Below, one piece after another: positions 3,793-47,655 of a DNA stretch of 64,000 nucleotides; position 1 is the stretch's first letter, and each line of letters opens with the position of its first letter. The position numbers and the translations under genes were made by a program. The stretch is taken from NCBI GenBank assembly GCA_015062285.1, contig SUUY01000001.1, positions 94,622-158,621 of the forward strand, read 5' to 3'. The notes under the pieces were generated by a model that was not told where the DNA came from, ran no database searches, and was given only the letters and a program-made list of their open reading frames with translations. Source of the stretch: Alphaproteobacteria bacterium. Its GTDB lineage: Bacteria; Pseudomonadota; Alphaproteobacteria; RF32; CAG-239.

Positions 3793-3860
3793 TAAATCCC
3801 TCCTCATCCGCCATTAAAGAAAAAGCCTGTCCTTGTGGCAGGCTTTTTCTTTAATCTGAG
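3793..3860. repeat. second copy of a ~68-bp direct repeat (first copy 3609..3676) comprising the 3' 20 nt of tRNA-Ser plus the terminator hairpin
   Basis: aaatccctcctcatccgccattaaagaaaaagcctgtccttgtggcaggctttttctttaat occurs twice with one mismatch in the trailing bases (ttgagg vs ctgagg), separated by ~117 bp of unique sequence; the second hairpin also terminates the minus-strand kef gene. Confidence 0.8.
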
Positions 3861-5803
3861 GATGCGGTTGCTTCAGTTTCTTTACCATCTGTTGATGTAG
3901 TTTGTTCTTTGTTTTCTTCTTTGTTGCGTCCGGCTAAATTAGTTAAAAACTGTTTTTCTATTTTCATATATTGATTAAACAGCCAACGTGACTGAAATAG
4001 AACAAAAACGGATATAGCAACCATAAAAATAGTAACGTTGTTGTTTTCTGTTAAAAATTGGTGGATAGCAATTACGATGAAAAACATCACAACCAATAGT
4101 CTAAAACTGGTTAGCAATATTAGAGGAAAGCGATTTAGTTTTTTTGCAGTCCATAATTTGAAATAAAGAGCCGCAATTTTTTGATTAGATACAAAAAAGT
4201 TGCGAGCATGTTCAATTTCACCGGTCATATGGCAAAAATCAAATTTTTCTTCTAATTTTTTGATGGCAGAAGGGTGGTTTTCATCGGTTGGCTTTTTGCG
4301 GCTTAATTTACAAGCGATAGCTGCTAACTTTTCTTTGAAATATACGGGTAGAACAGATTCCCAACCTATTAGGGCTTTTAGGAAAGGTGCCATAACAATG
4401 AGGGTTATAGAGGTGACTACTATTCTGGCGGGAATATTGGGTAAATATTCGTGAATGAATGGTTTTAAGAAATAATTAGATGCTCCCAAAATAGCAGACA
4501 ATATCATGGAAAATAAGACCATGCGAATGGTATAATTTCTAAACAGAAGTTTCCATCTTTTTTCTTCCATTTTAGTTTCATCAGCAAGAGATGTATTACG
4601 TTCAATATATTTGTTCAGATTTGAGGGAATTATTTTAACAATGCGTTTGTAGAACGGATCTGAGGCTTTGATCATCATAGGTGTTAAAAATGTTGTTATT
4701 ACCGAAACAGCAACAATTATTGGATAAATTTTTTCGCTTAAAACTCCTAAACTTAAACCTAAACTAGCAATAATAAATGCAAATTCGCCAACTTGAGCAA
4801 GAGAAAAACCTCCTTGAATTGATGTTTTTAGATTCTGTCCGGAATATAAAAAGCCAAAGCAAGAAAAACTAACCTTACCTATAATAACAATGAGTGTTAT
4901 AACAAATATCGGTCCGGCATAAGTAATAAACATCGCCGGATTAACCATCATGCCAACGGATACAAAAAATACTGCGCCGAAGAAATCTTTGATTGGTTTT
5001 AAGACGCTTTCTATACGATTGATAATGTCAGTGTCGGCTAATATTGAGCCCATAATAAATGCTCCGAGGGCTGATGAAAACCCTGTATAAGTGGCAAGCA
5101 ATACCATGCTGAAACACAAACCAATAATAGTTAAGAGTAAAAGTTCATCATTTAATAGCGGGGTTACTTTTTTTAGCAAAGTCGGAACCAAATATATTCC
5201 AGAGATAAAACATAGCACGAGGAAAAATACTAATTTTAGAGTGCTGACAATTAATTCTTCGCTATTGATATTGTTGCCTAAAGCAATAGTCGGAAGTAAT
5301 ACCAAAAGTAAAATGCCAACAATGTCTTCAACTACAAGCACCCCAAAAACCAGGTCGGTGAATTTTTGCTTTTTTACGTTTAGATCGTCAAAAGCTTTAA
5401 TTATAATGGTTGTAGAAGACATAGAAATCATGCTGCCCAAAAAGAAGCTGTCTATTACCGGCCAATCTAACAAAAGTCCGACGTTGTAGCCTAAAAAAAG
5501 CATAAATAAGATATTGGCCATGGCTGTAATCATTGCAGATTTGCCAACGTTTATCATTTTACTGAAGCTAAATTCGAGGCCGAGGCTAAAAAGCAAAAAG
5601 ATAACACCAATGTCTGCCCAAAGAGAAATATCTTCTTTATCGGTGATAGTAGGTAAAAAATTGAAGTGAGGGCCAACTAAAATGCCGGCCAAAAGGTATG
5701 CCAAAACGGTTGGTTGTTTAAGCTTTTTAAAGATAAGCGTAAAAATGGTGGCATAAATAGTAATCAGTGTTAAATCTATGATTAAGGCATGTATAGAATG
5801 CAT
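3851..5803 (-). CDS. CPA2-family monovalent cation:proton antiporter (Kef/NhaP-like) with long charged C-terminal extension
   Basis: 650 aa, ~12 TM helices, N-terminal AYLLAGILVGPH motif typical of Kef-type Na+/K+:H+ antiporters. Confidence 0.75.
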   Translation of the reverse strand: MHSIHALIIDLTLITIYATIFTLIFKKLKQPTVLAYLLAGILVGPHFNFLPTITDKEDISLWADIGVIFLLFSLGLEFSFSKMINVGKSAMITAMANILFMLFLGYNVGLLLDWPVIDSFFLGSMISMSSTTIIIKAFDDLNVKKQKFTDLVFGVLVVEDIVGILLLVLLPTIALGNNINSEELIVSTLKLVFFLVLCFISGIYLVPTLLKKVTPLLNDELLLLTIIGLCFSMVLLATYTGFSSALGAFIMGSILADTDIINRIESVLKPIKDFFGAVFFVSVGMMVNPAMFITYAGPIFVITLIVIIGKVSFSCFGFLYSGQNLKTSIQGGFSLAQVGEFAFIIASLGLSLGVLSEKIYPIIVAVSVITTFLTPMMIKASDPFYKRIVKIIPSNLNKYIERNTSLADETKMEEKRWKLLFRNYTIRMVLFSMILSAILGASNYFLKPFIHEYLPNIPARIVVTSITLIVMAPFLKALIGWESVLPVYFKEKLAAIACKLSRKKPTDENHPSAIKKLEEKFDFCHMTGEIEHARNFFVSNQKIAALYFKLWTAKKLNRFPLILLTSFRLLVVMFFIVIAIHQFLTENNNVTIFMVAISVFVLFQSRWLFNQYMKIEKQFLTNLAGRNKEENKEQTTSTDGKETEATASSD

Positions 5804-5919: not shown

Positions 5920-7155
5920 ATGAGGCACAAAATGAATGAAAATGCAAACTCTACTCCTCGGTCTTTGAGAATTGTGATTACTCTTATTGGAAGGAGAAAT
6001 GTTGGAAAATCATCTTTAATAAATTCAATTTGCGGACAAAATGTGTCTATCGTATCTGATGTTGCCGGAACAACAACAGATGCCGTTGCAAAATCATATG
6101 AATTATCAGGCCTTGGGGCCGTTACTTTTTATGATACTGCCGGATTGGACGATGAAGGAGATTTGGGACAACAAAGAATCAGTGCAACAAAAAAAGTTTT
6201 ATATAAAACAGATATTGCGGTGCTGGTAATTGGTACAGACGGCATACAGGAAAGCGATGCGGAAATCGTTAAAGATGTTAGAGAAATGAAGATTCCGTTA
6301 TTGGTTGTTTTTAACAAAACAGATATTTCAAGTCCCAAGGTGGAAGATAAGAAATGGGTGGAGCAAAATAATGTACAATATGTTGAAGTTTCTGCAGAAA
6401 AATCAGAAAACATAAACGTGCTAAAACAAAAAATTTCCGATATTGTTCCTGAAGATTTGAGGCAAGATCCTCTTTTGGCCGGCGACTTGTTTGCTGCGGG
6501 TGATGTTGTTGTGTTAGTAACACCAATAGATTATTCCGCTCCCAAAGGGCGTTTGATATTGCCTCAAGTGCAGGTTCTCAGAGAAATATTAGATAAAGGC
6601 GCAAAAGGGATAATAGTAAAAGAAACCGAATTGGAAAGTATATTGATGTTATTAAAGCAAAAGCCTGCTTTAATAATATCAGATTCACAGGTTATTATGA
6701 AAGTGGCAACTATTGTACCACAAGATGTACCTTTAACGACTTTTTCGATATTGTTTGCAAGAAATAAAGGGGATATTAGGGTAATGTATAGTGGGGCTTC
6801 AGCTATAGATGACCTGAAAGACGGGGACAAGGTTTTAATAGCCGAAGCTTGCTCACATCATGCTATGGAAGATGATATCGGAAAGGTGAAAATACCAAAT
6901 TGGTTAAAAAAATATACCGGAAAAAATTTGATGTTTGATTTTTGTCATGGTGGTGATTTTCCAGATAATTTAGAACAATATTCTTTAGTAATACATTGTG
7001 GAGCGTGCATGATAAACAGAACAGAAATGGTGAGAAGACTTAATGAATGTGTGCGCCGAGGAGTGAAAATAACTAACTATGGGGTAGTGATTTCTAAAAC
7101 TCAAGGAGTGTTGGAAAGAGTTGTGGAGCCATTAAAGATAAAGGAAAATATATAA
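5920..7155 (+). CDS. hydF: HydF-like [FeFe]-hydrogenase maturation GTPase
   Basis: N-terminal GTPase motifs G1 GRRNVGKSS, G2 GTTTD, G3 DTAG, G4 NKTD; central PKGRLILPQV...DSQVIMKVA block; C-terminal FeS-binding motif CSHH...x44-50...HCGAC with TNYGVVIS tail; collinear with characterised HydF proteins. Confidence 0.7.
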   Translation: MRHKMNENANSTPRSLRIVITLIGRRNVGKSSLINSICGQNVSIVSDVAGTTTDAVAKSYELSGLGAVTFYDTAGLDDEGDLGQQRISATKKVLYKTDIAVLVIGTDGIQESDAEIVKDVREMKIPLLVVFNKTDISSPKVEDKKWVEQNNVQYVEVSAEKSENINVLKQKISDIVPEDLRQDPLLAGDLFAAGDVVVLVTPIDYSAPKGRLILPQVQVLREILDKGAKGIIVKETELESILMLLKQKPALIISDSQVIMKVATIVPQDVPLTTFSILFARNKGDIRVMYSGASAIDDLKDGDKVLIAEACSHHAMEDDIGKVKIPNWLKKYTGKNLMFDFCHGGDFPDNLEQYSLVIHCGACMINRTEMVRRLNECVRRGVKITNYGVVISKTQGVLERVVEPLKIKENI

Positions 7156-7716
7156 ATGGCTTATGTTGTATATAGTATAGGTTGGTTAGCTATAATTTTT
7201 AATATATATTGGATTGTGAGCTTTGTTAAGAGTGGTTTTGGAAAATACCCACCATGCATAATTTCCTTTGGATTTGCAAAAAAAAAGGTGTTGGAGCAAG
7301 CTAAAAAATATATAAGAGTAAACAGTGGTATGCAGACAATTGTTGATCTGGGGTGTGGATGCGGAGATTTGTTGTTGCCTTTGGCAAAAGAATTTCCTCA
7401 ACACAGGTTTGTTGGTATAGAACGAGATATAATAGTATATTTTTTGGTAAAACTGCGTTCATTAAAATATAAAAATATAAAAATAATATGGGGTGATTTT
7501 TTGAATAAAGATTGGACACAATTTGATGTGTTTGTTTGTTATTTGGGAAATGAAATAGCTCCGTTTGTTGCAAAAAAGTTTCTCATAGAAGCAAAAGAAA
7601 AAGCAGTGCTTGTTTCGGAGGTTTTTGCAATGCCAAATTTATACGAAGTAGAAAAATTTGATATTAAAACCTGTAAGCTTCCCACGAATGTTTTTGTATA
7701 TAAGAAAATAAAGTAG
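7156..7716 (+). CDS. small class I SAM-dependent methyltransferase with N-terminal hydrophobic helix
   Basis: Motif I VDLGCGCGDL and downstream acidic motif II/III spacing; start codon abuts the hydF stop codon (likely co-transcribed). Confidence 0.5.
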   Translation: MAYVVYSIGWLAIIFNIYWIVSFVKSGFGKYPPCIISFGFAKKKVLEQAKKYIRVNSGMQTIVDLGCGCGDLLLPLAKEFPQHRFVGIERDIIVYFLVKLRSLKYKNIKIIWGDFLNKDWTQFDVFVCYLGNEIAPFVAKKFLIEAKEKAVLVSEVFAMPNLYEVEKFDIKTCKLPTNVFVYKKIK

Positions 7717-7717
7717 T

Positions 7718-9076
7718 TTAAGATTGTTCAAGCGTTTTGACTATTTCTTCTGTTACTTTTTTGGCATCGCCATACAACATTATGGTATTATCAGCAAAAA
7801 ACAGAGGATTTTCTACGCCGGAATAACCACTTGCAAGACTTCTTTTTACAAAAAATACGGTCTTAGCTTTTTCTACATCCAGAATTGGCATTCCGTAGAT
7901 GGGTGAGGAAGGATCGGTTCGTGCTAGCGGGTTGGTGATATCGTTAGCACCGATAACATAAGCTACGTCAGCTGTAGCAAATTCTCGGTTAATGTCTTCT
8001 AATTCAAAAACTTCATCATAGGGCACATTTGCTTCGGCCAACAAAACATTCATATGTCCGGGCATTCTTCCGGCAACAGGATGAATCGCATATTTAACTT
8101 CTACTCCATAACGATTGTGCAAATCATCGGCCATTTCTTTTAATACATGTTGAGCTTGAGCCACAGCCATACCATATCCGGGAACAATGATAACTTTGTT
8201 GGCATTTTCCATAATAAAAGCGGCATCTTCGGGGCTTCCGGATTTGGCGGTTTTGTCTGAAGAGTTAACTTGTGAAGTGTTTGTTTGTGTTCCAAAACCT
8301 CCAAGCATCACGCTAATAAGTGAGCGATTCATAGACTTGACCATAATATATGATAAAATTGCTCCGCTTGCACCAACAATCGCACCGACAATGATTAGAA
8401 CTACATTGTTAAGAGAGAAACCAATTCCGACAGCTGCCCAACCGGAATAAGCATTTAGAATCGATATGACTACAGGCATATCTGCACCGCCGATTGGTAA
8501 AACAAGCAAAATTCCTAAAAGTGTGGTAATAGCAGCAATATAATAAAAAATCAGAGGATTGTGGTTGATTATATAATAACCACATAGTGTTATGGTTGCT
8601 AAAGCAAATATCAGGTTTATAGCTTGTTGTCCCTTGAAAACAATTGCTTTGGCTTGAATAAGACCTTGCAGTTTGGCATATGCAATTATAGAGCCGGAAA
8701 AAGCAAGTCCTCCAATTACCAAGCCAATCAGATTGTTAAAAAATGAAGATGAGCCAGAAATTACTTCGACTAATGAAATTAAAACGGCAGACAAACCTCC
8801 TAATCCGTTAAAAATAGCAACCATTTGCGGAAGAGAAGTCATTTTTACTTTAAGGGCAAAGTAAATTCCGACAATGGCACCTAGGAAAATGGCTATTAAT
8901 GCATTGGACCAATTATAGTTGGGGTTTGATATAATTGTGGCTCCAATGGCGATAATAATTCCTAAAATGCCTAATGAGTTGCCTTTGCGAGCCGTTTGTG
9001 GAGAAGATAATCCTCTGATGCTGAAAATAAGTAGTATGGCGGAAATTAAATATGAATAAGATAGAAATACAGGCAT
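7718..9076 (-). CDS. pntB: NAD(P) transhydrogenase subunit beta
   Basis: 452 aa, multi-TM N-terminus and C-terminal NADP(H)-binding domain (VIIVPGYGMAVAQAQH...GANDITNP). Confidence 0.9.
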   Translation of the reverse strand: MPVFLSYSYLISAILLIFSIRGLSSPQTARKGNSLGILGIIIAIGATIISNPNYNWSNALIAIFLGAIVGIYFALKVKMTSLPQMVAIFNGLGGLSAVLISLVEVISGSSSFFNNLIGLVIGGLAFSGSIIAYAKLQGLIQAKAIVFKGQQAINLIFALATITLCGYYIINHNPLIFYYIAAITTLLGILLVLPIGGADMPVVISILNAYSGWAAVGIGFSLNNVVLIIVGAIVGASGAILSYIMVKSMNRSLISVMLGGFGTQTNTSQVNSSDKTAKSGSPEDAAFIMENANKVIIVPGYGMAVAQAQHVLKEMADDLHNRYGVEVKYAIHPVAGRMPGHMNVLLAEANVPYDEVFELEDINREFATADVAYVIGANDITNPLARTDPSSPIYGMPILDVEKAKTVFFVKRSLASGYSGVENPLFFADNTIMLYGDAKKVTEEIVKTLEQS

Positions 9077-9360
9077 TATTTTTTCTCCTTTTTCTTAAAC
9101 ATCAAAAGCATACGATGTGAAATGGCGAATCCGCCAAATATGTTTACAGATGCTAAGAATATGGCTAAGAAACCAAATATTTGTGATAAATTATCGTTTG
9201 ATGATTGTATAGATATGAGGGCTCCGACGATGACAATGCCAGATATTGCATTTGATACGCTCATTAAAGGGGAGTGAAGAGCCGGTGTTACGCCCCATAC
9301 TACAAAGTAGCCGATAAAACATGCTAAAATAAAAACAGTGATAAGAAAAAAAAGATGCAT
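9076..9360 (-). CDS. pntA: NAD(P) transhydrogenase subunit alpha part 2 (membrane segment, PntAB)
   Basis: 94-aa 3-TM protein between pntAA and pntB, as in the split alpha-proteobacterial pnt operon. Confidence 0.8.
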   Translation of the reverse strand: MHLFFLITVFILACFIGYFVVWGVTPALHSPLMSVSNAISGIVIVGALISIQSSNDNLSQIFGFLAIFLASVNIFGGFAISHRMLLMFKKKEKK

Positions 9361-10479
9361 TTATTTATTCTCCAAAAGATTGTGTCCGTTGTTGCAAATA
9401 CAAGTAGCGGAAATAATTTCATCATCAAAATTCAGATTTAATTTTAGTGTGGTTTTATCAACTATATTATACACAAAATTATATATATTTTGAGCAAATA
9501 GGCGACTTGCAGAGAAAGGAATTGCAGATGCTAAATTGCTATTGCCGATAATTTTGATGCCGTTTTTTTCAATAATGGCATTGTCTTGAGATCCCTCTAC
9601 ATTTCCTCCATATGCACTAGCCATATCAATAATTACAGAATTTTGAGGCATGTTTTTGAGCATTTGATAATCTATTAAAATGGGTGCCTTTTTTCCGGGA
9701 ATTAGAGCTGTAGTAATAACTACATCTGTTTGTTTTAAGGCTTCGGAAACGGCTTGTTTTTGAAGTTTTTGAAATTCTTTTGAAGTCTCTTTGGCGTATC
9801 CGTCTGAAGTTTCAGTGACCTCATCGGTTTTAATTTCTATAAACTTTCCTCCCAGAGATTCAACTTGTTCTTTGGTGTTTGGCCTAATATCTGAAGCAAA
9901 AACTTGCGCTCCCATTCTTTTGGCAGTAGCGATAGCTTGCAATCCGGCAACACCGGTTCCTAAAATTAGAACTTTGGCAGGAGATATTGTTCCGGCAGAG
10001 GTCATCATTAAAGGGGCAGCTTTAGGTAAAAAATTTAGTGCCTCTATAACAGCTTTGTATCCGGCTATATTGTTTTGTGACGATAAAATATCCATGCTTT
10101 GAGCTCGAGAAATGCGGGGTAGTAGGTCTAGAGCAAAACAGGTTAATTGTTTTTTTGCAAATTTTGAAATGTATGTTTTTTGAGCAAGTGCTTGAAAATT
10201 AGCAATGATGATTTGCGAGGGAGACAATAAACCTATTTCATCATCGGTAGGAGCATTGATTTTGATAACAATGTTTGCATCTTTAATGGCGTGTTTAGCC
10301 GATGGGCATATTTTTGCGCCGGATTTGGCATATTCTTCATCGCTAAATCCGGCTTTAACTCCGGCTCCGGTTTCGATATTAATGTTAAATCCGAGAGCTA
10401 AATATTTTTTGGTAATTTCCGGAGTGATCGCAACTCTGTTTTCATTTTTTAGGGTTTCTTTTATTACGGCAATTTGCAT
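9361..10479 (-). CDS. pntA: NAD(P) transhydrogenase subunit alpha part 1 (dI, NAD(H)-binding; alanine dehydrogenase-like fold)
   Basis: MQIAVIKE..., Rossmann motif LILGTGVAGLQAIATAKRMGA. Confidence 0.9.
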   Translation of the reverse strand: MQIAVIKETLKNENRVAITPEITKKYLALGFNINIETGAGVKAGFSDEEYAKSGAKICPSAKHAIKDANIVIKINAPTDDEIGLLSPSQIIIANFQALAQKTYISKFAKKQLTCFALDLLPRISRAQSMDILSSQNNIAGYKAVIEALNFLPKAAPLMMTSAGTISPAKVLILGTGVAGLQAIATAKRMGAQVFASDIRPNTKEQVESLGGKFIEIKTDEVTETSDGYAKETSKEFQKLQKQAVSEALKQTDVVITTALIPGKKAPILIDYQMLKNMPQNSVIIDMASAYGGNVEGSQDNAIIEKNGIKIIGNSNLASAIPFSASRLFAQNIYNFVYNIVDKTTLKLNLNFDDEIISATCICNNGHNLLENK

Positions 10480-12225: not shown

Positions 12226-13525
12226 TTTTAGTCCTAGAGAAATCGTTTCAGAACTGGATAAATATATTATCGGACAGGCTGATGCCAAAAAAGCAGTAGC
12301 TGTTGCATTACGTAACAGATGGAGAAGAATGCAGTTGCCAGAAAAATTACGAGAAGAAATTGTGCCTAAAAATATTTTGATGATTGGTCCTACCGGTGTG
12401 GGTAAAACAGAAATTTCTCGCCGACTGGCAAAATTGGCAAAAGCTCCTTTTGTAAAGGTAGAAGCAACCAAATTTACTGAAATAGGTTATGTGGGAAGAG
12501 ATGTTGAAAGTATTATCAGAGATTTGGTGGAAATATCTTTGCATAATACCAGAAAAAATATGAGAAAAAAGGTTTGTGCCAAAGCGGAAGAAGGAGCAGA
12601 AGAAAGATTGCTTGGAGCTTTGGTCGGAAATAATGCCGGAGACGAAACAAAACAAAAATTCAGGCAAATGTTAAGGGAGAATAAACTTGACGACAGAGAA
12701 ATAGATATTTCCTTGTTAGATAATAGTAATTCTTCGATGCCGACAATAGATATTCCGGGTATGCCCGGTGCTTCTATGGGCATGATCAGTTTGGGTGATT
12801 TGCTCGGCGGCGGTTCGCAAAAATATAAAACAAGAAAATTAAAAGTTGCAGATGCTAAAAAGATATTGATTGACGAGGAATCGGATAAGCTTTTGGACAA
12901 TGAAACTATTACAGCAGAAGCCATAAAGGCAGTAGAAAACGATGGAATAGTATTTATTGATGAGATAGATAAAATTACCGGAAAATCAGAGGGCGGTAGA
13001 GCAGATGTTTCTCGTGAAGGAGTGCAAAGAGATTTGTTGCCGCTGATTGAAGGAACAACAGTTTCAACTAAATATGGAATGGTGAAAACAGATCATATTT
13101 TGTTTATATGTTCAGGTGCTTTTCATTTGGCGAAACCATCTGATTTGTTGCCGGAGTTGCAAGGCCGTTTGCCTATCAGAGTGGAGTTGCAGGCTCTAAA
13201 TCGAGGCGATTTTGTAAGAATTTTGACAGAGCCGGAAGCAAACCTTATAGAACAGTATGTGGCATTGCTTGGAACCGAAGGTTTTAATCTGCGTTTTGAG
13301 CCGGAAGCTATAGAAAAAATAGCAGATGTTGCTGTGGAAATTAATGAAAATGTTGAAAATATCGGAGCAAGGCGTTTGCATACGGTATTGGAAATTTTGC
13401 TGGAGGATATAAGCTTTAAGGCTACGGATTGCAGTGGGCAAGAAGAAGTTATAACTGCTCAAATGGTAGAAGAAAAACTCGGCAAATATACCAAAGCAAG
13501 TGATCTTTCGAAGTTTATTCTATAA
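12212..13525 (+). CDS. hslU: ATP-dependent protease ATPase subunit HslU
   Basis: AAA+ Walker [12 protein letters not shown]-domain insertion, C-terminal sensor region; overlaps hslV by 14 nt. Confidence 0.9.
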
Positions 13526-14610
13526 TGGCTTTTGGGATTTACATTCATTGGCCTTTTTGCCGGAGCAAGTGTCCTTATTGTGATTTTTATAGTAAGGTGC
13601 AGAAGAATGTGCCTCAAGATGCGTTGGTTAAAGAATATCTTGAAGACATAAAATATTATGCAGATAAGATTGGTAAAAGAGAGGTAACATCAATATTTTT
13701 TGGAGGTGGAACCCCGTCTTTATTGACGCCTTCAAATATTGAAAAACTCATAAATGAAGTTGCAAAAAATTGGCTGGTTGCCAATGATGTTGAGATTTCT
13801 TTAGAGGCAAATCCGAATACAAATAAGGATAATTTATTTAGAGATTTGCATAATGCCGGAATTAATCGATTGTCTTTAGGTATTCAATCTTTAAGAGATT
13901 CGGATTTGAAATTTTTGGGTAGAACTCACAGTGTAAAAGAGGCTTTGCAGTCGGTAGAAGAGGTATTGAACATTTTTGATAATCACTCTGCTGATTTGAT
14001 TTATGCTCGTCCAAATCAAAGTAAGTCAGAATGGGAAGATGAGTTAACGCAGCTTTGTAAATTTGGGTTTAAGCACTTGTCTTTATATCAGTTAACAATA
14101 GAAGAAGGTACGGTTTTTGCTAAGAAGGGAATTGAGGCAGTTGGCGAAGATGATGCTATTGAACTTTATAAAATTAGCGAAGGTGTTGTAGAAAGCTACG
14201 GGTATAAAGGGTATGAAGTATCTAATTATGCAAAAAGCGGCTTTGAATGTCGTCACAATAAGATTTATTGGCAAGGTGATGATTATGTGGGCATAGGAAA
14301 AGGTGCACACGGCAGATTGAGAATCGGAAATAAATTTTATGCAACAACACATCATCGGGTTTTTGAAGAAATAACCGGACATGAAAGAGCTGAAGAACTT
14401 GTTTTTATGGGGCTTCGTTTAAGAGAGGGAATAAACAAAAAATATTTTGAAAAATGCTGCGGTATAAAATTTGATGAGTTTATAGATAAAAAAATTTTAA
14501 GAGAACTGGAAAATCAAAATCTTTTGTATGTTACAGATCAAAGTATAAGAGCAACAGATGAAGGGATTTTATTGTTAAATCAAATAATAGAGCAATTAGT
14601 TTGTATGTAA
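13525..14610 (+). CDS. hemW: radical SAM family heme chaperone HemW (HemN-like, oxygen-independent coproporphyrinogen-III oxidase-like)
   Basis: CxxxCxxC radical-SAM motif CRSKCPYCDF near N-terminus, HemN C-terminal domain. Confidence 0.85.
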   Translation: MAFGIYIHWPFCRSKCPYCDFYSKVQKNVPQDALVKEYLEDIKYYADKIGKREVTSIFFGGGTPSLLTPSNIEKLINEVAKNWLVANDVEISLEANPNTNKDNLFRDLHNAGINRLSLGIQSLRDSDLKFLGRTHSVKEALQSVEEVLNIFDNHSADLIYARPNQSKSEWEDELTQLCKFGFKHLSLYQLTIEEGTVFAKKGIEAVGEDDAIELYKISEGVVESYGYKGYEVSNYAKSGFECRHNKIYWQGDDYVGIGKGAHGRLRIGNKFYATTHHRVFEEITGHERAEELVFMGLRLREGINKKYFEKCCGIKFDEFIDKKILRELENQNLLYVTDQSIRATDEGILLLNQIIEQLVCM

Positions 14611-16123: not shown

Positions 16124-16363
16124 TTATTCGTTGGCATTTGGCCAATTTTTAGCGTTGTCAGCGTTGAATTTAATTGTAGCTTCATCAGCTTCGTCGTCGC
16201 TAACAATAGCTTCTTGTGGGCATTCAGAAATGCATACGCCACAAGAAATACATGTGTCAGGATCAACTACCAATTGAGAATCGCCTTCACGGAAAGCGTC
16301 TACAGGGCATACGTCAACGCAAGATTTACATTTGATGCAAGCATCAGTAACAACAGATACCAT
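16124..16363 (-). CDS. fdxA: 2x[4Fe-4S] ferredoxin
   Basis: Two CxxCxxCxxxCP clusters (CIKCKSCVDVCP, CISCGVCISECP), 79 aa. Confidence 0.85.
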   Translation of the reverse strand: MVSVVTDACIKCKSCVDVCPVDAFREGDSQLVVDPDTCISCGVCISECPQEAIVSDDEADEATIKFNADNAKNWPNANE

Positions 16364-16439
16364 ATTAATTTACTCCAAATTTGGTTGTAATAAAATCAGC
16401 ACTAACAATAGACAATTTATGAAATAAATCAAGTACAAT

Positions 16440-45900: not shown

Positions 45901-47655
45901 ATGAGGAAAATTAGAATGGTAAGCATTAGATTATATAGGTTTTCTGCTTTGTTAGCAGTGTTTGTTTTGGCTGCTTGCAGCATTTTGGGAGGAAAAAACG
46001 AATCTAGCGGAGGAACGGGGATGTTGGTTGTGGATACAAATCCCGAACCTATAAAAAATAAGTTAAATGTTTATGATTCTATGGCGAGAGCGACTAAATA
46101 CAACATAGATGCCGAAGGTAGAAATCTTTATCGTAAAATAAATGGTGATGCACCTCTGTTGGAAAAAGGGATAGAAAACTATGTAAATACTCTGAATAAA
46201 AGTGATAACAGGCTGCAGAAAGCTGCAGATGCGTTAGATTTTTCAATCGTTTATGCTACAGTTGTTTTGAGCTCCAATAATGTTTTTGCCGATAATTATG
46301 TTTATGAAACCGCAGCGAGAAATTTGGCGCTGGAAGCTATTGAAGCTCATCAAAAAGCGTGGTTTGCGAAGAAAAATGAACGGTCTGTTGAAAAATGGGT
46401 ATCTCAAGAGCAAAAAATCATAGACAATATTGATGGTAAGGAAAAGAAAAACGGTTCTTTGACGAATGAAGAATATGATTATAGAAAAAATCAGATCGTA
46501 GCTTTGATGCGTTTAAAAGAGTTAAGGGATAGCTTGAACGCAGAAGCTATTGCGTATGCGGATTTAATCAGATCTGATCCGGTGAATCCTGATTTAGAGG
46601 GCAGAAAATTTTATGCTTTAGAAAACTTTGATGATGATTACAGTGTTGTGCTTTTTCAAGAAACTGCATATCGTAATAGGAAAGAGTTTGCTTTGGCAAA
46701 AGAGATTGAAGATTCTTTGTCTTTTTCTCAATTGCGCAGAAACGTGAGTGGTAGGTATTCTCCGGTGTCTAGGCTTGATGTAAACGGAAAGACTATTGAA
46801 CATGATATTTATGAAGATGAGTTGTACCGAAAAGCAATGGCAATTGCGAATGATTTGGTAGAATCTACCAATGCATACAAAAAATCTAGAGTTCCAGCTG
46901 CAGACTATTTGAGAGTTAGCGCTTTTGAAGATTTGGGTGTGGCTGTATTGACACAGGTAGAGGTTTATTACCAGTTGGTTATGCAGGCTGATGTAACTTA
47001 TGCGAAGACAGCAAAAGCATATGATAATATTAAAAAAGAAATCAGACGGTTAGAAAAAATCAGACGAATGACAAATGACGAAAAATTGGCGCTGTTTAAT
47101 GCAAAAATAACGGCTCTTAAGCTTGAAAAGCAAAAAGCAAAAATTAGCGCAGAAAGAGCAAGAGCTTTAAGAGCATTGTATTTTAGCGGAGGCCTTTCTC
47201 CTTTTAAAACAAATATGTTGAGACAGAGTGACAAAAAAGTGTCCGAAGAATTGCATAAGTCGTTTAATTCTGATCTTTCAGTAATGTTGGCAGGGTTAAA
47301 TGAACCGGTAAAAGAACCTCCTTTGATAGAAATGGAAAAGGGATGGGCACAAAAACCAAACTGGCTTGAAGATGTGGTTTCGTATGATAAGGAGGCAACA
47401 TATTTATCGCCAAAATTTGATTCTTTAAAAAAGACAATGCAACTTGGTGCTTATTTAAGTCAAAAAAGCGCAGAAGAAGATTGGAGGTATCTGTCTGCAA
47501 AATATGCAGAGTTAAATATTTATAAGCCGGTGTATGAAGTGACAACCGTAAATGGTAAAGAGTGGCATCGTTTGATTATAAAAGCAGAGGCCGTGGATTT
47601 GTACAATCTGTGTGCAATGATTAAAAATCATGGCGATGATTGCTTATTAAGATAG
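45901..47655 (+). CDS. lipoprotein with coiled-coil region and C-terminal SPOR (septal peptidoglycan-binding) domain
   Basis: Lipobox LAAC; C-terminal MQLGAYLSQKSAEEDWRYLSAKYAEL...GKEWHRLIIKAEAVDLYNLCAMIKNHGDDC fits the SPOR fold signature (QxGAF, W, RL/RV, conserved Cys pair). Confidence 0.5.
   Translation: MRKIRMVSIRLYRFSALLAVFVLAACSILGGKNESSGGTGMLVVDTNPEPIKNKLNVYDSMARATKYNIDAEGRNLYRKINGDAPLLEKGIENYVNTLNKSDNRLQKAADALDFSIVYATVVLSSNNVFADNYVYETAARNLALEAIEAHQKAWFAKKNERSVEKWVSQEQKIIDNIDGKEKKNGSLTNEEYDYRKNQIVALMRLKELRDSLNAEAIAYADLIRSDPVNPDLEGRKFYALENFDDDYSVVLFQETAYRNRKEFALAKEIEDSLSFSQLRRNVSGRYSPVSRLDVNGKTIEHDIYEDELYRKAMAIANDLVESTNAYKKSRVPAADYLRVSAFEDLGVAVLTQVEVYYQLVMQADVTYAKTAKAYDNIKKEIRRLEKIRRMTNDEKLALFNAKITALKLEKQKAKISAERARALRALYFSGGLSPFKTNMLRQSDKKVSEELHKSFNSDLSVMLAGLNEPVKEPPLIEMEKGWAQKPNWLEDVVSYDKEATYLSPKFDSLKKTMQLGAYLSQKSAEEDWRYLSAKYAELNIYKPVYEVTTVNGKEWHRLIIKAEAVDLYNLCAMIKNHGDDCLLR

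What the first reader, a model, noticed from the sequence alone, without database searches (positions are those of the whole stretch)
5920..7716. Bona fide HydF-like [FeFe]-hydrogenase maturase GTPase, apparently orphan, fused in an operon with a small SAM methyltransferase
The 411-aa protein is collinear with HydF. It has an N-terminal GTPase domain (G1-G4), a conserved PKGRLILPQV / DSQVIMKVA dimerisation block and the C-terminal FeS ligand motif CxH...HCxxC (CSHH ... HCGAC). No hydA/hydE/hydG is present in the window. The only radical-SAM gene here (13525-14610) carries HemW/HemN signatures, not HydE/G. The immediately abutting gene encodes a ~186-aa membrane-anchored class I methyltransferase. 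This implies either an [FeFe]-hydrogenase system encoded elsewhere, which would be unusual for a low-GC host-associated alpha-proteobacterium, or a repurposed HydF-like scaffold working with a methyltransferase.
Basis: partly seen in the sequence, partly recalled or inferred. Interest (0 to 1): 0.65.

Follow-up and report, generated by a model that had tools for sequence, protein, structure and literature searches.

The report
Ordinary HydF beside a lysine methyltransferase
This is a normal, already annotated hydrogenase-maturation GTPase (HydF) of an anaerobic gut alphaproteobacterium; it looks orphaned only because this lineage scatters its hydrogenase genes, and the small neighbouring gene is a membrane-anchored protein-lysine methyltransferase that sits beside HydF in only some relatives.

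Summary
Bases 5932-7155 (+) encode a 407-aa canonical HydF: TIGR03918 scores 543 bits against a cut-off of 325, it matches solved HydF structures at E about 1e-108, and the G1-G4 and CxH-45-HCxxC motifs are intact and invariant in homologues. NCBI already names it HydF (MBE6444534.1). Bases 7156-7716 (+) encode a 186-aa methyltransferase that starts on the base after the hydF stop codon. No hydA, hydE or hydG lies in the 64-kb window.

The "orphan" reading is probably an effect of the window. The host belongs to the gut order RF32 (family CAG-239). In every related locus I read, hydF stands apart from a full hyd cluster. Relatives with the same HydF lineage do carry partners. One (L097) shares this window's gene order and has a group B [FeFe]-hydrogenase and a sensory-type hydrogenase two genes away. 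Two others (L095, L092) have hydE 0.4 and 6.3 kb from hydF. I could not read the rest of this organism's own genome.

The methyltransferase belongs to the archaeal aKMT protein-lysine methyltransferase family, with an added N-terminal membrane helix like mitochondrial FAM173 enzymes. It follows hydF in 4 of 15 related contexts, so it is not an obligate partner. The finding is ordinary and interest is low.

The parts
5932..7155 (+). hydF: [FeFe]-hydrogenase H-cluster maturation GTPase, 407 aa. The mechanical ORF starts at 5920, but 5932 is the likely start.
   Evidence: TIGR03918 543 bits against cut-off 325. Pfam MMR_HSR1 + HydF_dimer + HydF_tetramer. PDB HydF entries 3qq5, 5lad and 5kh0 match at E 2e-108 to 7e-103 over the full length. 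100% identical to NCBI MBE6444534.1, which NCBI names HydF.
5922..5925 (+). GAGG ribosome-binding site, 6 nt before ATG 5932.
   Evidence: Read directly from the sequence. Supports the 407-aa start used by the public gene calls.
5989..6012 (+). HydF G1 / P-loop GRRNVGKS (residues 20-27). The other GTPase motifs are G2 TTTD at 6070-6081, G3 DTAG at 6133-6144 and G4 NKTD at 6313-6324.
   Evidence: Coordinates. G20, N23, G25, K26, S27, T47-D50, D68-G71 and N128 are invariant in 23 homologues, and D131 is conserved in at least 90%.
6535..6573 (+). Conserved SAPKGRLILPQVQ block of the HydF dimerisation domain. DSQVIMKVA lies at 6682-6708.
   Evidence: A203-Q212 and Q214 are invariant in alignment A1. 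Pfam HydF_dimer covers residues 186-284 of the 411-aa ORF.
6850..6858 (+). CSH: the first half of the [4Fe-4S] ligand motif (C307, H309).
   Evidence: Invariant in 23 homologues. Aligns with the CTH of Thermotoga HydF structures.
6994..7008 (+). HCGAC: the second half of the ligand motif (H355, C356, C359), 45 residues after CxH.
   Evidence: C356 and C359 are invariant and H355 is conserved in at least 90%. Coordinates.
7141..7145 (+). AAGGA ribosome-binding site for the methyltransferase gene, inside the 3' end of hydF.
   Evidence: Read from the sequence. The hydF stop TAA is at 7153-7155 and the ATG at 7156. No terminator-like site lies between the genes.
7156..7716 (+). 186-aa membrane-anchored protein-lysine methyltransferase of the aKMT / FAM173-like family. 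It has a transmembrane helix at 7162-7227, a pre-MTase motif GKYPPCIIS at 7240-7266 and SAM motif I DLGCGCG at 7345-7365.
   Evidence: The family profile matches Sulfolobus aKMT 5fa8 and 5jwj at E 2.7e-25 and 1.1e-23, end to end. The AlphaFold2 model has pLDDT 94.1, and its top Foldseek hits are aKMT 5fa8/5fad with TM 0.80. Only generic methyltransferase Pfam models match. NCBI MBE6444535.1 is named 'methyltransferase domain-containing protein'.
3851..5803 (-). Context gene: Na+/H+ exchanger family membrane protein, divergent from hydF. It is a conserved left neighbour in part of the lineage.
   Evidence: Pfam Na_H_Exchanger. 76-79% identical orthologues hold the same position in L003, L005, L007, L010 and L097.
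7718..9076 (-). Context gene: pntB (NAD(P) transhydrogenase beta subunit), convergent with the methyltransferase gene, one base between the two stop codons. pntA lies at 9076-10479.
   Evidence: Pfam PNTB. It is the conserved right neighbour in L003, L005, L007 and L010; in L097 a 152-aa gene lies between the methyltransferase and pntB.

Best explanation
The locus encodes a canonical HydF. HydF is the GTPase scaffold that holds a [4Fe-4S] cluster on the CxH...HCxxC ligands, receives the 2Fe precursor built by the radical-SAM enzymes HydG and HydE, and passes it to apo-[FeFe]-hydrogenase. The host is an anaerobic gut alphaproteobacterium of order RF32 (family CAG-239). In this group the hyd genes are scattered round the chromosome, so hydA, hydE and hydG most likely lie outside this 64-kb window.

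The gene that starts on the base after the hydF stop is a separate protein, probably co-transcribed. It is an aKMT-family protein-lysine methyltransferase tethered to the membrane by one N-terminal helix, the same layout as mitochondrial FAM173A/B. Its substrate is unknown and is most likely unrelated to H-cluster assembly. The adjacency to hydF is an old arrangement in this HydF lineage that most members have lost.

Shown here: the identity of both proteins, the motifs, the gene order and the pattern in relatives. Inferred: that hydA/E/G exist in this genome, that the two genes are co-transcribed, and that the methyltransferase acts on lysine.
For: HydF identity:
- TIGR03918 scores 543 bits against a cut-off of 325, and three HydF Pfam domains match.
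- Solved HydF structures match over the full length at E about 1e-108.
- GTPase and FeS-ligand residues are invariant across 23 homologues.
- dN is 0.19-0.27 while synonymous sites are saturated, which indicates purifying selection.
- NCBI already names this protein HydF.

Dispersed system in the lineage:
- hydF stands apart from a hyd cluster in all 16 loci of this HydF lineage that I read.
- L097 has HydF 66%, Na/H exchanger 79%, methyltransferase 54% and PntB 68% identical to the window's, in the same order. Just beyond the exchanger it carries a group B [FeFe]-hydrogenase (TIGR04105, 526 bits against cut-off 450; TSCCP, PCxxK and ExMCCxGGC motifs), a 594-aa sensory-type hydrogenase and a PP2C phosphatase.
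- L095 (HydF 63%) has hydE 359 nt after hydF, and L092 (62%) has hydE 6.3 kb upstream. Both score 376-383 bits on TIGR03956 against a cut-off of 255.
- A HydE search returned 120 clusters at 77-86% identity. The few that carry a source name are called Alphaproteobacteria, Rhodospirillales or Acetobacter sp..
- Published gut alphaproteobacterial genomes carry HydE, F, G and HydA with non-consecutive accession numbers (PMC4967309).
- RGIG4207, which carries a HydF of this lineage, is classified RF32 / CAG-239 / genus 51-20.

Methyltransferase:
- The aKMT profile match is E 2.7e-25 and runs end to end, including YPPFVPS against VPYVPT and DLGCGxG. The fold match has TM 0.80.
- The family has 143 representatives below E 1e-10, and the best-scoring ones are mostly 185-195 aa with the same N-terminal helix.
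- It follows hydF in only 4 of 15 contexts of this lineage, with no pseudogene remnants in the rest. It appears in none of about 80 other HydF or HydG loci.
Against: - I could not show hydA, hydE or hydG in this organism's own genome. The species is missing from the genome collection (best hit 73%).
- Its HydE was not among the 120 best hits to a relative's HydE. None of the ten HydE clusters I looked up (six of them with an NCBI accession on record) belongs to the MBE644... accession series of this genome.
- A low-GC HydG motif scan of metagenomes found no member of this lineage.
- The hydF-methyltransferase pair recurs in four lineages down to 39% methyltransferase identity, in two different flanking contexts. 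That is more than a single chance insertion and leaves room for a functional link.
- In this window the methyltransferase motif reads PPCIIS, where the family consensus is PPFVPS.
Confidence: 0.78

Rival explanations
1. True orphan. This species has lost hydA, hydE and hydG and keeps HydF as a relic or for another GTPase / FeS-scaffold role.
For: No partner gene lies within -10 kb to +58 kb of hydF in this organism. No HydE from this genome's accession series turned up. RF32 genomes are reduced, about 1.6 Mb (PMC8199421), so pathway loss is plausible.
Against: All catalytic and ligand residues are intact and invariant. dN is far below the saturated dS. The identical protein sits on 20 assembled contigs from different samples. 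Relatives with the same HydF lineage and the same synteny carry HydA or HydE. I know of no HydF function outside H-cluster maturation.
Confidence: 0.1
2. HydF and the methyltransferase form a functional module. Either the membrane-anchored lysine methyltransferase modifies HydF, the hydrogenase or its redox partner, or it tethers maturation to the membrane.
For: Stop and start codons abut, with an internal ribosome-binding site and no terminator. The pair is kept in 4 lineages of this HydF clade, including the basal P0074, across two different flanking contexts. The methyltransferase is under purifying selection, with dN/dS about 0.28.
Against: The pair is absent from 11 of 15 contexts of the same HydF lineage with no remnant, and from all other HydF loci searched, about 80 in Desulfobacterota, Clostridia, PVC-group bacteria and the second alphaproteobacterial HydF lineage. 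The three other gene pairs are separated by 37-82 nt, not abutting. The methyltransferase family is far more diverse than this HydF clade, with 143 representatives at the 50%-identity level below E 1e-10. Established H-cluster maturation needs no methyl transfer.
Confidence: 0.08
3. The neighbour is an RNA methyltransferase (KsgA/Dim1-like or TrmB-like), not a protein methyltransferase.
For: The single sequence hits archaeal Dim1/KsgA structures (E 1.7e-5), NCBIfam TrmB (36 bits) and KsgA (27 bits), all far below their cut-offs. The third-best profile hit is the Salinibacter 'RNA methyltransferase' 5bxy, at E 5e-13.
Against: The family profile prefers aKMT by 12 orders of magnitude and aligns end to end, including the N-terminal VPYVPT-type motif. 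A transmembrane anchor is atypical for rRNA or tRNA methyltransferases. The protein is too short to carry the RNA-binding C-terminal domain of KsgA.
Confidence: 0.07

Closest known systems
HydF of Thermotoga neapolitana, T. maritima and Thermosipho melanesiensis (PDB 3QQ5, 5LAD, 5KH0); NCBIfam TIGR03918
   Same: The three-domain layout is the same: GTPase, dimerisation and FeS-cluster/tetramerisation domains. G1-G4 and CxH...HCxxC are present. The alignment is collinear over about 390 residues at E about 1e-108.
   Different: Nothing structural differs. Only the gene context differs: hydF stands alone here, between a Na+/H+ exchanger gene and pntAB, not in a hydEFG cluster.
Desulfovibrionaceae hydG-hydE-hydF clusters (for example L017, L019-L021, L027)
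   Same: These are the nearest HydF sequences outside the gut alphaproteobacterial clade, at 57-61% identity.
   Different: There hydF closes a TM1266 - hydG - (aspartase-like) - hydE - hydF cluster. In the RF32 lineage the cluster is broken up.
Gut metagenomic Rhodospirillales-like alphaproteobacteria with dispersed HydE/F/G and [FeFe]-hydrogenases ('Azospirillum sp. CAG:239', 'Acetobacter sp. CAG:977'; Degli Esposti et al. 2016, PMC4967309)
   Same: The same kind of host, and maturase and hydrogenase genes with non-consecutive accession numbers, which suggests they are not clustered.
   Different: I could not link those genomes to this HydF lineage. None of their accession numbers appeared among the clusters I looked up. 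They may carry the second alphaproteobacterial HydF lineage, which is 45-49% identical.
Archaeal aKMT (Sulfolobus islandicus, PDB 5FA8 / 5JWJ), a broad-specificity protein-lysine methyltransferase
   Same: A small seven-beta-strand methyltransferase. The profile match is end to end at E 2.7e-25, including the N-terminal VPYVPT-like motif and DLGCGxG. It is the best fold match, with TM 0.80.
   Different: The bacterial protein has an extra N-terminal transmembrane helix. Its substrates are unknown. This copy reads PPCIIS where the family consensus is PPFVPS.
Mitochondrial FAM173B/ATPSc-KMT and FAM173A/ANT-KMT
   Same: The architecture is transmembrane domain, then pre-MTase motif, then methyltransferase domain. 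They are described as aKMT homologues, and aKMT itself is said to have homologues in alpha-proteobacteria (review PMC9006661). Because the sequence came from memory, this is a lead and not a test.
   Different: The targets of the eukaryotic enzymes (ATP synthase subunit c Lys43, ANT Lys52) are not established for bacteria. No orthology analysis was done.

Membership tests
HydF ([FeFe]-hydrogenase maturation GTPase) | Scores above the curated cut-off of the equivalog model over its full length | tested here: met
   TIGR03918: 543.4 bits against 325.55, model positions 2-392 of 392.
HydF ([FeFe]-hydrogenase maturation GTPase) | N-terminal GTPase domain with G1-G4 motifs | tested here: met
   GRRNVGKS, TTTD, DTAG and NKTD are present. 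They are invariant in 23 homologues, except the final D of NKTD, which is conserved in at least 90%. Pfam MMR_HSR1 at 1.4e-21.
HydF ([FeFe]-hydrogenase maturation GTPase) | HydF dimerisation and tetramerisation / FeS-cluster domains | tested here: met
   PF18128 at 4.5e-41 and PF18133 at 4.7e-50, both over their full model length.
HydF ([FeFe]-hydrogenase maturation GTPase) | [4Fe-4S] ligand motif CxHx(44-53)HCxxC | tested here: met
   C307-S-H309, then 45 residues, then H355-C356-G-A-C359. It aligns with the ligands in 3QQ5 and 5LAD and is conserved in close homologues.
HydF ([FeFe]-hydrogenase maturation GTPase) | Co-occurrence in the same genome with hydE, hydG and an [FeFe]-hydrogenase | not testable with these tools
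   The partners are absent from the window, and this genome is not in the genome collection. In relatives of the same HydF lineage, group B HydA plus a sensory-type hydrogenase (L097) and HydE (L092, L095) lie on the hydF contig. HydG was not seen in this lineage.
HydF ([FeFe]-hydrogenase maturation GTPase) | GTP hydrolysis, binding of the 2Fe precursor and activation of apo-HydA | not testable with these tools
   This needs biochemistry.
aKMT / FAM173 protein-lysine methyltransferases (neighbour gene) | Seven-beta-strand fold with SAM motif I (DxGxGxG) | tested here: met
   DLGCGCG at residues 64-70. AlphaFold2 model pLDDT 94.1. Top Foldseek hits are aKMT 5fa8/5fad with TM 0.80.
aKMT / FAM173 protein-lysine methyltransferases (neighbour gene) | End-to-end sequence homology to characterised aKMT | tested here: met
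   Profile of 45 family members against 5fa8: E 2.7e-25, profile positions 35-188 against chain residues 6-157. The single sequence alone gives only E 6e-4 to 9e-3.
aKMT / FAM173 protein-lysine methyltransferases (neighbour gene) | Conserved N-terminal (V/P)P(Y/F)VP(T/S) 'pre-MTase' motif | tested here: inconclusive
   The family consensus YPPFVPS aligns with aKMT VPYVPT, but this copy reads YPPCIIS.
aKMT / FAM173 protein-lysine methyltransferases (neighbour gene) | FAM173-type transmembrane anchor ahead of the pre-MTase motif | tested here: met
   Hydrophobic residues 3-24 are modelled as one helix (2-25). The best-scoring family members listed show the same hydrophobic N-terminal stretch.
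aKMT / FAM173 protein-lysine methyltransferases (neighbour gene) | Lysine N-methylation of a defined protein substrate | not testable with these tools
Clustered hydEFG / hydA operon | hydE, hydG or hydA adjacent to hydF | tested here: not met
   None lies within -10 kb to +58 kb of hydF in this organism.

The most novel reading that the evidence does not exclude
The hydF-methyltransferase pair may be an ancestral two-gene unit of this RF32 HydF lineage. In that reading a membrane-anchored, FAM173-like lysine methyltransferase (a bacterial relative of the mitochondrial ATP-synthase-c and ANT methyltransferases) modifies HydF, the hydrogenase or its electron partner, or places maturation at the membrane. 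That would link an anaerobic hydrogen-metabolism gene to a methyltransferase family that survives in mitochondria.
Probability: 0.07. Interest if true: 0.6.

Novelty: already known. Interest (0 to 1): 0.2.

Why it matters
As given, the finding matters little. The gene is a correctly annotated HydF in a group of gut alphaproteobacteria already reported to have dispersed hydrogenase and maturase genes. The useful result is negative: a stand-alone hydF in a 64-kb window is the normal state in this lineage and should not be read as an orphan or repurposed scaffold.

Two small by-products may interest specialists. First, RF32 gut alphaproteobacteria carry two distinct HydF lineages, and the one here is closest to Desulfovibrionaceae HydF. 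This bears on arguments about an alphaproteobacterial origin of eukaryotic hydrogenase maturases. Second, these anaerobes encode a transmembrane-anchored aKMT-type lysine methyltransferase with the domain layout of mitochondrial FAM173A/B, and in some of them it lies directly after hydF.

Tried and rejected
1. Exact look-up of the 411-aa ORF found nothing. The 407-aa form is the public gene.

2. I searched for this organism's HydE using the HydE of a distant alphaproteobacterial genome (L009). The hits were 60-66% identical, unnamed or named for non-alphaproteobacterial groups (e.g. Geobacter-type), and none belonged to this clade.

3. The single genome-collection scan, with HydF as query, showed the species itself is absent (best 73%). 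I therefore could not scan its genome for hydA/E/G.

4. The single metagenome scan used a HydG motif written in low-GC codons (GIGTYQCFQExYH). It gave 30 loci, but their HydFs are only 44-51% identical to this one, so none belongs to this lineage.

5. The last protein search used the HydE of relative L092. It returned 120 clusters at 77-86% identity, but none could be tied to this genome's accession series.

6. I matched HydF and HydE hits by identical 'longest contig' length. Two matches proved real when read (63,162 bp for L092 and 60,539 bp for L095). One was false: on the 15,421-bp contig, L097 has no radical-SAM gene. The two remaining coincidences (25,227 and 14,067 bp) are unverified and are not used as evidence.

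7. Two scans of viral contigs for the relatives' HydA and HydE found nothing usable.

8. The supplementary hydrogenase table of the ruminant genome paper (Table S28) is not held as text. Only the taxonomy of RGIG4207 could be taken from it. A literature search for 'CAG-239' plus 'hydrogenase' found no paper.

9. tblastn for methyltransferase pseudogene remnants downstream of hydF in relatives that lack the gene found none.

10. A Foldseek search of the AlphaFold database was unavailable.

11. The first tree attempt timed out. The tree is a simple neighbour-joining tree without support values.
Full report
**What is there**

The ORF list shows a 411-aa ORF at 5920-7155 (+) and a 186-aa ORF at 7156-7716 (+). 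They lie between a divergent Na+/H+ exchanger gene (3851-5803, -) and a convergent pntB (7718-9076, -).

The first protein matches Pfam MMR_HSR1, HydF_dimer and HydF_tetramer. It scores 543 bits on the NCBIfam HydF equivalog TIGR03918 against a cut-off of 325, covering nearly the full model (positions 2-392 of 392). It aligns over about 390 residues with the three solved HydF structures (3QQ5, 5LAD, 5KH0) at E 2e-108 to 7e-103.

- G1 GRRNVGKS, G2 TTTD, G3 DTAG and G4 NKTD.
- SAPKGRLILPQVQ and DSQVIMKVA.
- CSH, then 45 residues, then HCGAC.

In an alignment with 22 homologues at 48-80% identity, the GTPase residues and C307, H309, C356 and C359 are invariant, and H355 is nearly so.

The likely start is ATG 5932, not 5920. 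A GAGG lies 6 nt upstream of it, and the public gene calls use it. The 407-aa product is 100% identical to NCBI MBE6444534.1, which NCBI already names HydF, from an 'Alphaproteobacteria bacterium' metagenome-assembled genome. The same protein was seen on 20 contigs of up to 615 kb.

**The window holds no partner genes**

A six-frame scan for H-cluster motifs and radical-SAM motifs found only the HydF ligand motif, a HemW-type radical-SAM gene (13525-14610; Radical_SAM + HemN_C) and a small ferredoxin. Family searches of the window's other large ORFs gave housekeeping functions: LeuS, LptE, HolA, MurJ, an NfuA-like protein, TypA, L9, a YifB-family ATPase, Hsp33, RecX, TruA, an MgsA-type AAA+ ATPase, AsmA, L10 and an ABC transporter. 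So the observation 'no hydA/E/G here' is correct.

**Who the host is, and how hydF sits in its relatives**

The nearest HydFs, at 59-80% identity, come from gut and rumen alphaproteobacterial genomes. One of them, RGIG4207, is classified RF32 / CAG-239 / genus 51-20. A neighbour-joining tree, without support values, places this gut clade next to Desulfobacterota HydFs, which are 57-61% identical. It lies far from a second gut-alphaproteobacterial HydF lineage at 45-49% identity.

I read 16 distinct contexts of the first lineage. hydF is never inside a full hyd cluster. Its neighbours vary:
- Na/H exchanger and pntAB in L001-L008, L010 and L097.
- feoB in L011 and L012.
- lpxK-kdtA-DUF374 in L013-L016 and L095.
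- lpxA-lpxI-lpxB in L092.
- A LysR-family regulator gene in L094 and L096.
- A 583-aa ORF upstream, and the methyltransferase plus a 1266-aa ORF downstream, in L093.

By contrast, Desulfovibrionaceae keep a TM1266 - hydG - hydE - hydF cluster.

**Relatives do have the partner genes**

- L097 (NCBI JAZUOP010000021.1, GC 37%) has the same order as the window: Na/H exchanger (79% identical), hydF (66%), methyltransferase (54%), pntB (68%), pntA and chrA, with one extra 152-aa gene between the methyltransferase and pntB. Immediately beyond the exchanger it carries a 486-aa hydrogenase that scores 526 bits on the group B model TIGR04105 (cut-off 450), with TSCCP, PCxxK and ExMCCxGGC motifs. Next to that lie a 594-aa sensory-type hydrogenase-like protein (Fer4 + Fe_hyd_lg_C + PF04060), a SpoIIE/PP2C phosphatase and two small 2Fe-2S thioredoxin-like proteins.
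- L095 has hydE convergent with hydF, 359 nt after it. L092 has hydE 6.3 kb upstream. Both pass TIGR03956, at 383 and 376 bits against a cut-off of 255.
- A search with the L092 HydE returned 120 clusters at 77-86% identity. Most carry no source name; those that do are called Alphaproteobacteria, Rhodospirillales or Acetobacter sp..
- Degli Esposti et al. 2016 had already listed HydE, HydF, HydG and two hydrogenase types, with non-consecutive accession numbers, in gut metagenomic alphaproteobacteria (PMC4967309).

HydF here is also under purifying selection: dN is 0.19-0.27 while synonymous sites are saturated.

Taken together, the most likely reading is an ordinary, dispersed system. I put about 85% on hydA/E/G lying elsewhere in this genome. 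I could not prove it. The species is not in the genome collection, and three attempts to reach its HydE or HydG failed. HydG was not seen in this HydF lineage at all.

**The neighbouring methyltransferase**

The hydF TAA ends at 7155 and the ATG follows at 7156. An AAGGA lies 10 nt upstream, and there is no terminator-like site between the genes. They are two proteins, probably on one transcript, and not a fusion.

The single sequence hits only generic methyltransferase models, and hits TrmB and KsgA models far below their cut-offs. An exhaustive search found a family with 143 representatives below E 1e-10. The best-scoring ones are mostly 185-195 aa, and all of those listed begin with a hydrophobic helix followed by a GKYPPFVPS-type motif.

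A profile of 45 members matches the Sulfolobus protein-lysine methyltransferase aKMT (5FA8, 5JWJ) end to end at E 2.7e-25 and 1.1e-23. YPPFVPS aligns with VPYVPT, and DLGCGxG aligns with DLGCGDG. The AlphaFold2 model has pLDDT 94.1 and shows a helix at residues 2-25 ahead of a seven-beta-strand domain. Its best structural matches are aKMT, with TM 0.80.

A review states that aKMT has homologues in alpha-proteobacteria. It also states that the mitochondrial enzymes FAM173B (ATPSc-KMT) and FAM173A (ANT-KMT) consist of a transmembrane domain, a pre-MTase region and the methyltransferase domain (PMC9006661). The protein here has that layout. I count that as a lead only.

**Is the pair meaningful?**

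The methyltransferase follows hydF in four lineages of this HydF clade:
- This organism.
- The P0005 group (HydF 73%, methyltransferase 54% identical).
- L097 (HydF 66%, methyltransferase 54%).
- The basal P0074 / L093 (HydF 61%, methyltransferase 39%), which has different flanking genes.

It is absent, with no pseudogene remnant, from the 11 other contexts that have readable downstream DNA. These include L010, whose HydF is 73% identical. An HMM of the family finds it in none of the other roughly 80 HydF or HydG loci fetched.

The simplest reading is an old adjacency that has been lost repeatedly. The two genes are co-located but not mutually dependent. A functional link is not excluded, and I give it under 10%. 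No methyl transfer is known in H-cluster assembly.

**Verdict**

The protein is a real HydF with a membrane-anchored methyltransferase next to it. The 'orphan' status is most probably an effect of the window in a lineage that scatters its hyd genes. A hydrogenase system is not unusual for these gut alphaproteobacteria. The 'repurposed scaffold with a methyltransferase' idea has little support.

The locus is already annotated and of a known kind, so interest is low. The one side observation worth recording is that anaerobic RF32 alphaproteobacteria encode FAM173-like, membrane-anchored aKMT homologues, sometimes directly after hydF.

Noticed in passing
L097:2154-7144 (NCBI JAZUOP010000021.1): This relative shares the window's synteny. 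It carries a compact block next to the Na/H exchanger gene: a 2Fe-2S thioredoxin-like protein (81 aa), a 594-aa sensory-type [FeFe]-hydrogenase-like protein (TACP in place of TSCCP, plus PF04060 and a C-terminal extension), a SpoIIE/PP2C phosphatase, a second 2Fe-2S protein (86 aa), and a 486-aa group B [FeFe]-hydrogenase. It looks like an H2-sensing regulatory unit paired with a catalytic enzyme.
   Followed up: partly
window 7156-7716, and alignment A3: The small methyltransferase belongs to a family (143 representatives below E 1e-10) of transmembrane-anchored aKMT homologues with the domain layout of mitochondrial FAM173A/B (ANT-KMT, ATPSc-KMT). No Pfam or NCBIfam model specific to this family matched; only generic methyltransferase models did.
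   Followed up: partly
L010-L016 compared with L031-L054 (genome-contig hits): Gut and rumen alphaproteobacterial genomes carry two distinct HydF lineages. One (59-80% identical to this HydF) is closest to Desulfovibrionaceae HydF. The other (45-49%) in one case (L038) has hydG directly after hydF, and that HydG resembles those of Lentisphaeria and Verrucomicrobiota. This suggests at least two separate acquisitions.
   Followed up: partly
L011:7617-9503 and L012:7617-9503: In two relatives a feoB ferrous-iron transporter gene lies just upstream of hydF on the same strand. A short ORF on the opposite strand (9538-10056) lies between them and overlaps the hydF start.
   Followed up: no
window 16127-16369 (-): A 79-aa 2x[4Fe-4S] ferredoxin gene lies about 9 kb from hydF. 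It is a possible electron partner for a hydrogenase or PFOR. A 'short ferredoxin' is listed among the anaerobic-metabolism proteins of gut alphaproteobacteria in PMC4967309.
   Followed up: no
window 47725-51231 (+): A pentapeptide-repeat protein (381 aa) is followed by a 785-aa protein with a type IV secretion coupling-protein (TraG/VirD4-like) domain. The surrounding region is otherwise housekeeping and has no other conjugation genes.
   Followed up: no
window 1-64000: GC skew is positive in 31 of the 32 two-kb windows (cumulative +6.5) at about 36% GC, and most large genes are on the + strand. The window therefore seems to lie wholly on one replichore, with genes co-oriented with replication.
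   Followed up: no
window 31929-33761, 45901-47655 and 60600-61538: Three sizeable ORFs (610, 584 and 312 aa) match no Pfam or NCBIfam family at the thresholds used. A 621-aa ORF without any family match also follows hydF in relatives L014-L016.
   Followed up: no
window 55964-56464 (+): A 166-aa ORF matches only the C-terminal part of the ATP12 (F1-ATPase assembly chaperone) model. It may be a short or truncated form.
   Followed up: no
(method note): Matching proteins by identical 'longest contig' length is unreliable. HydF P0036 and HydE P0435 both list 15,421 bp, yet the contig that carries P0036 has no radical-SAM gene.
   Followed up: yes
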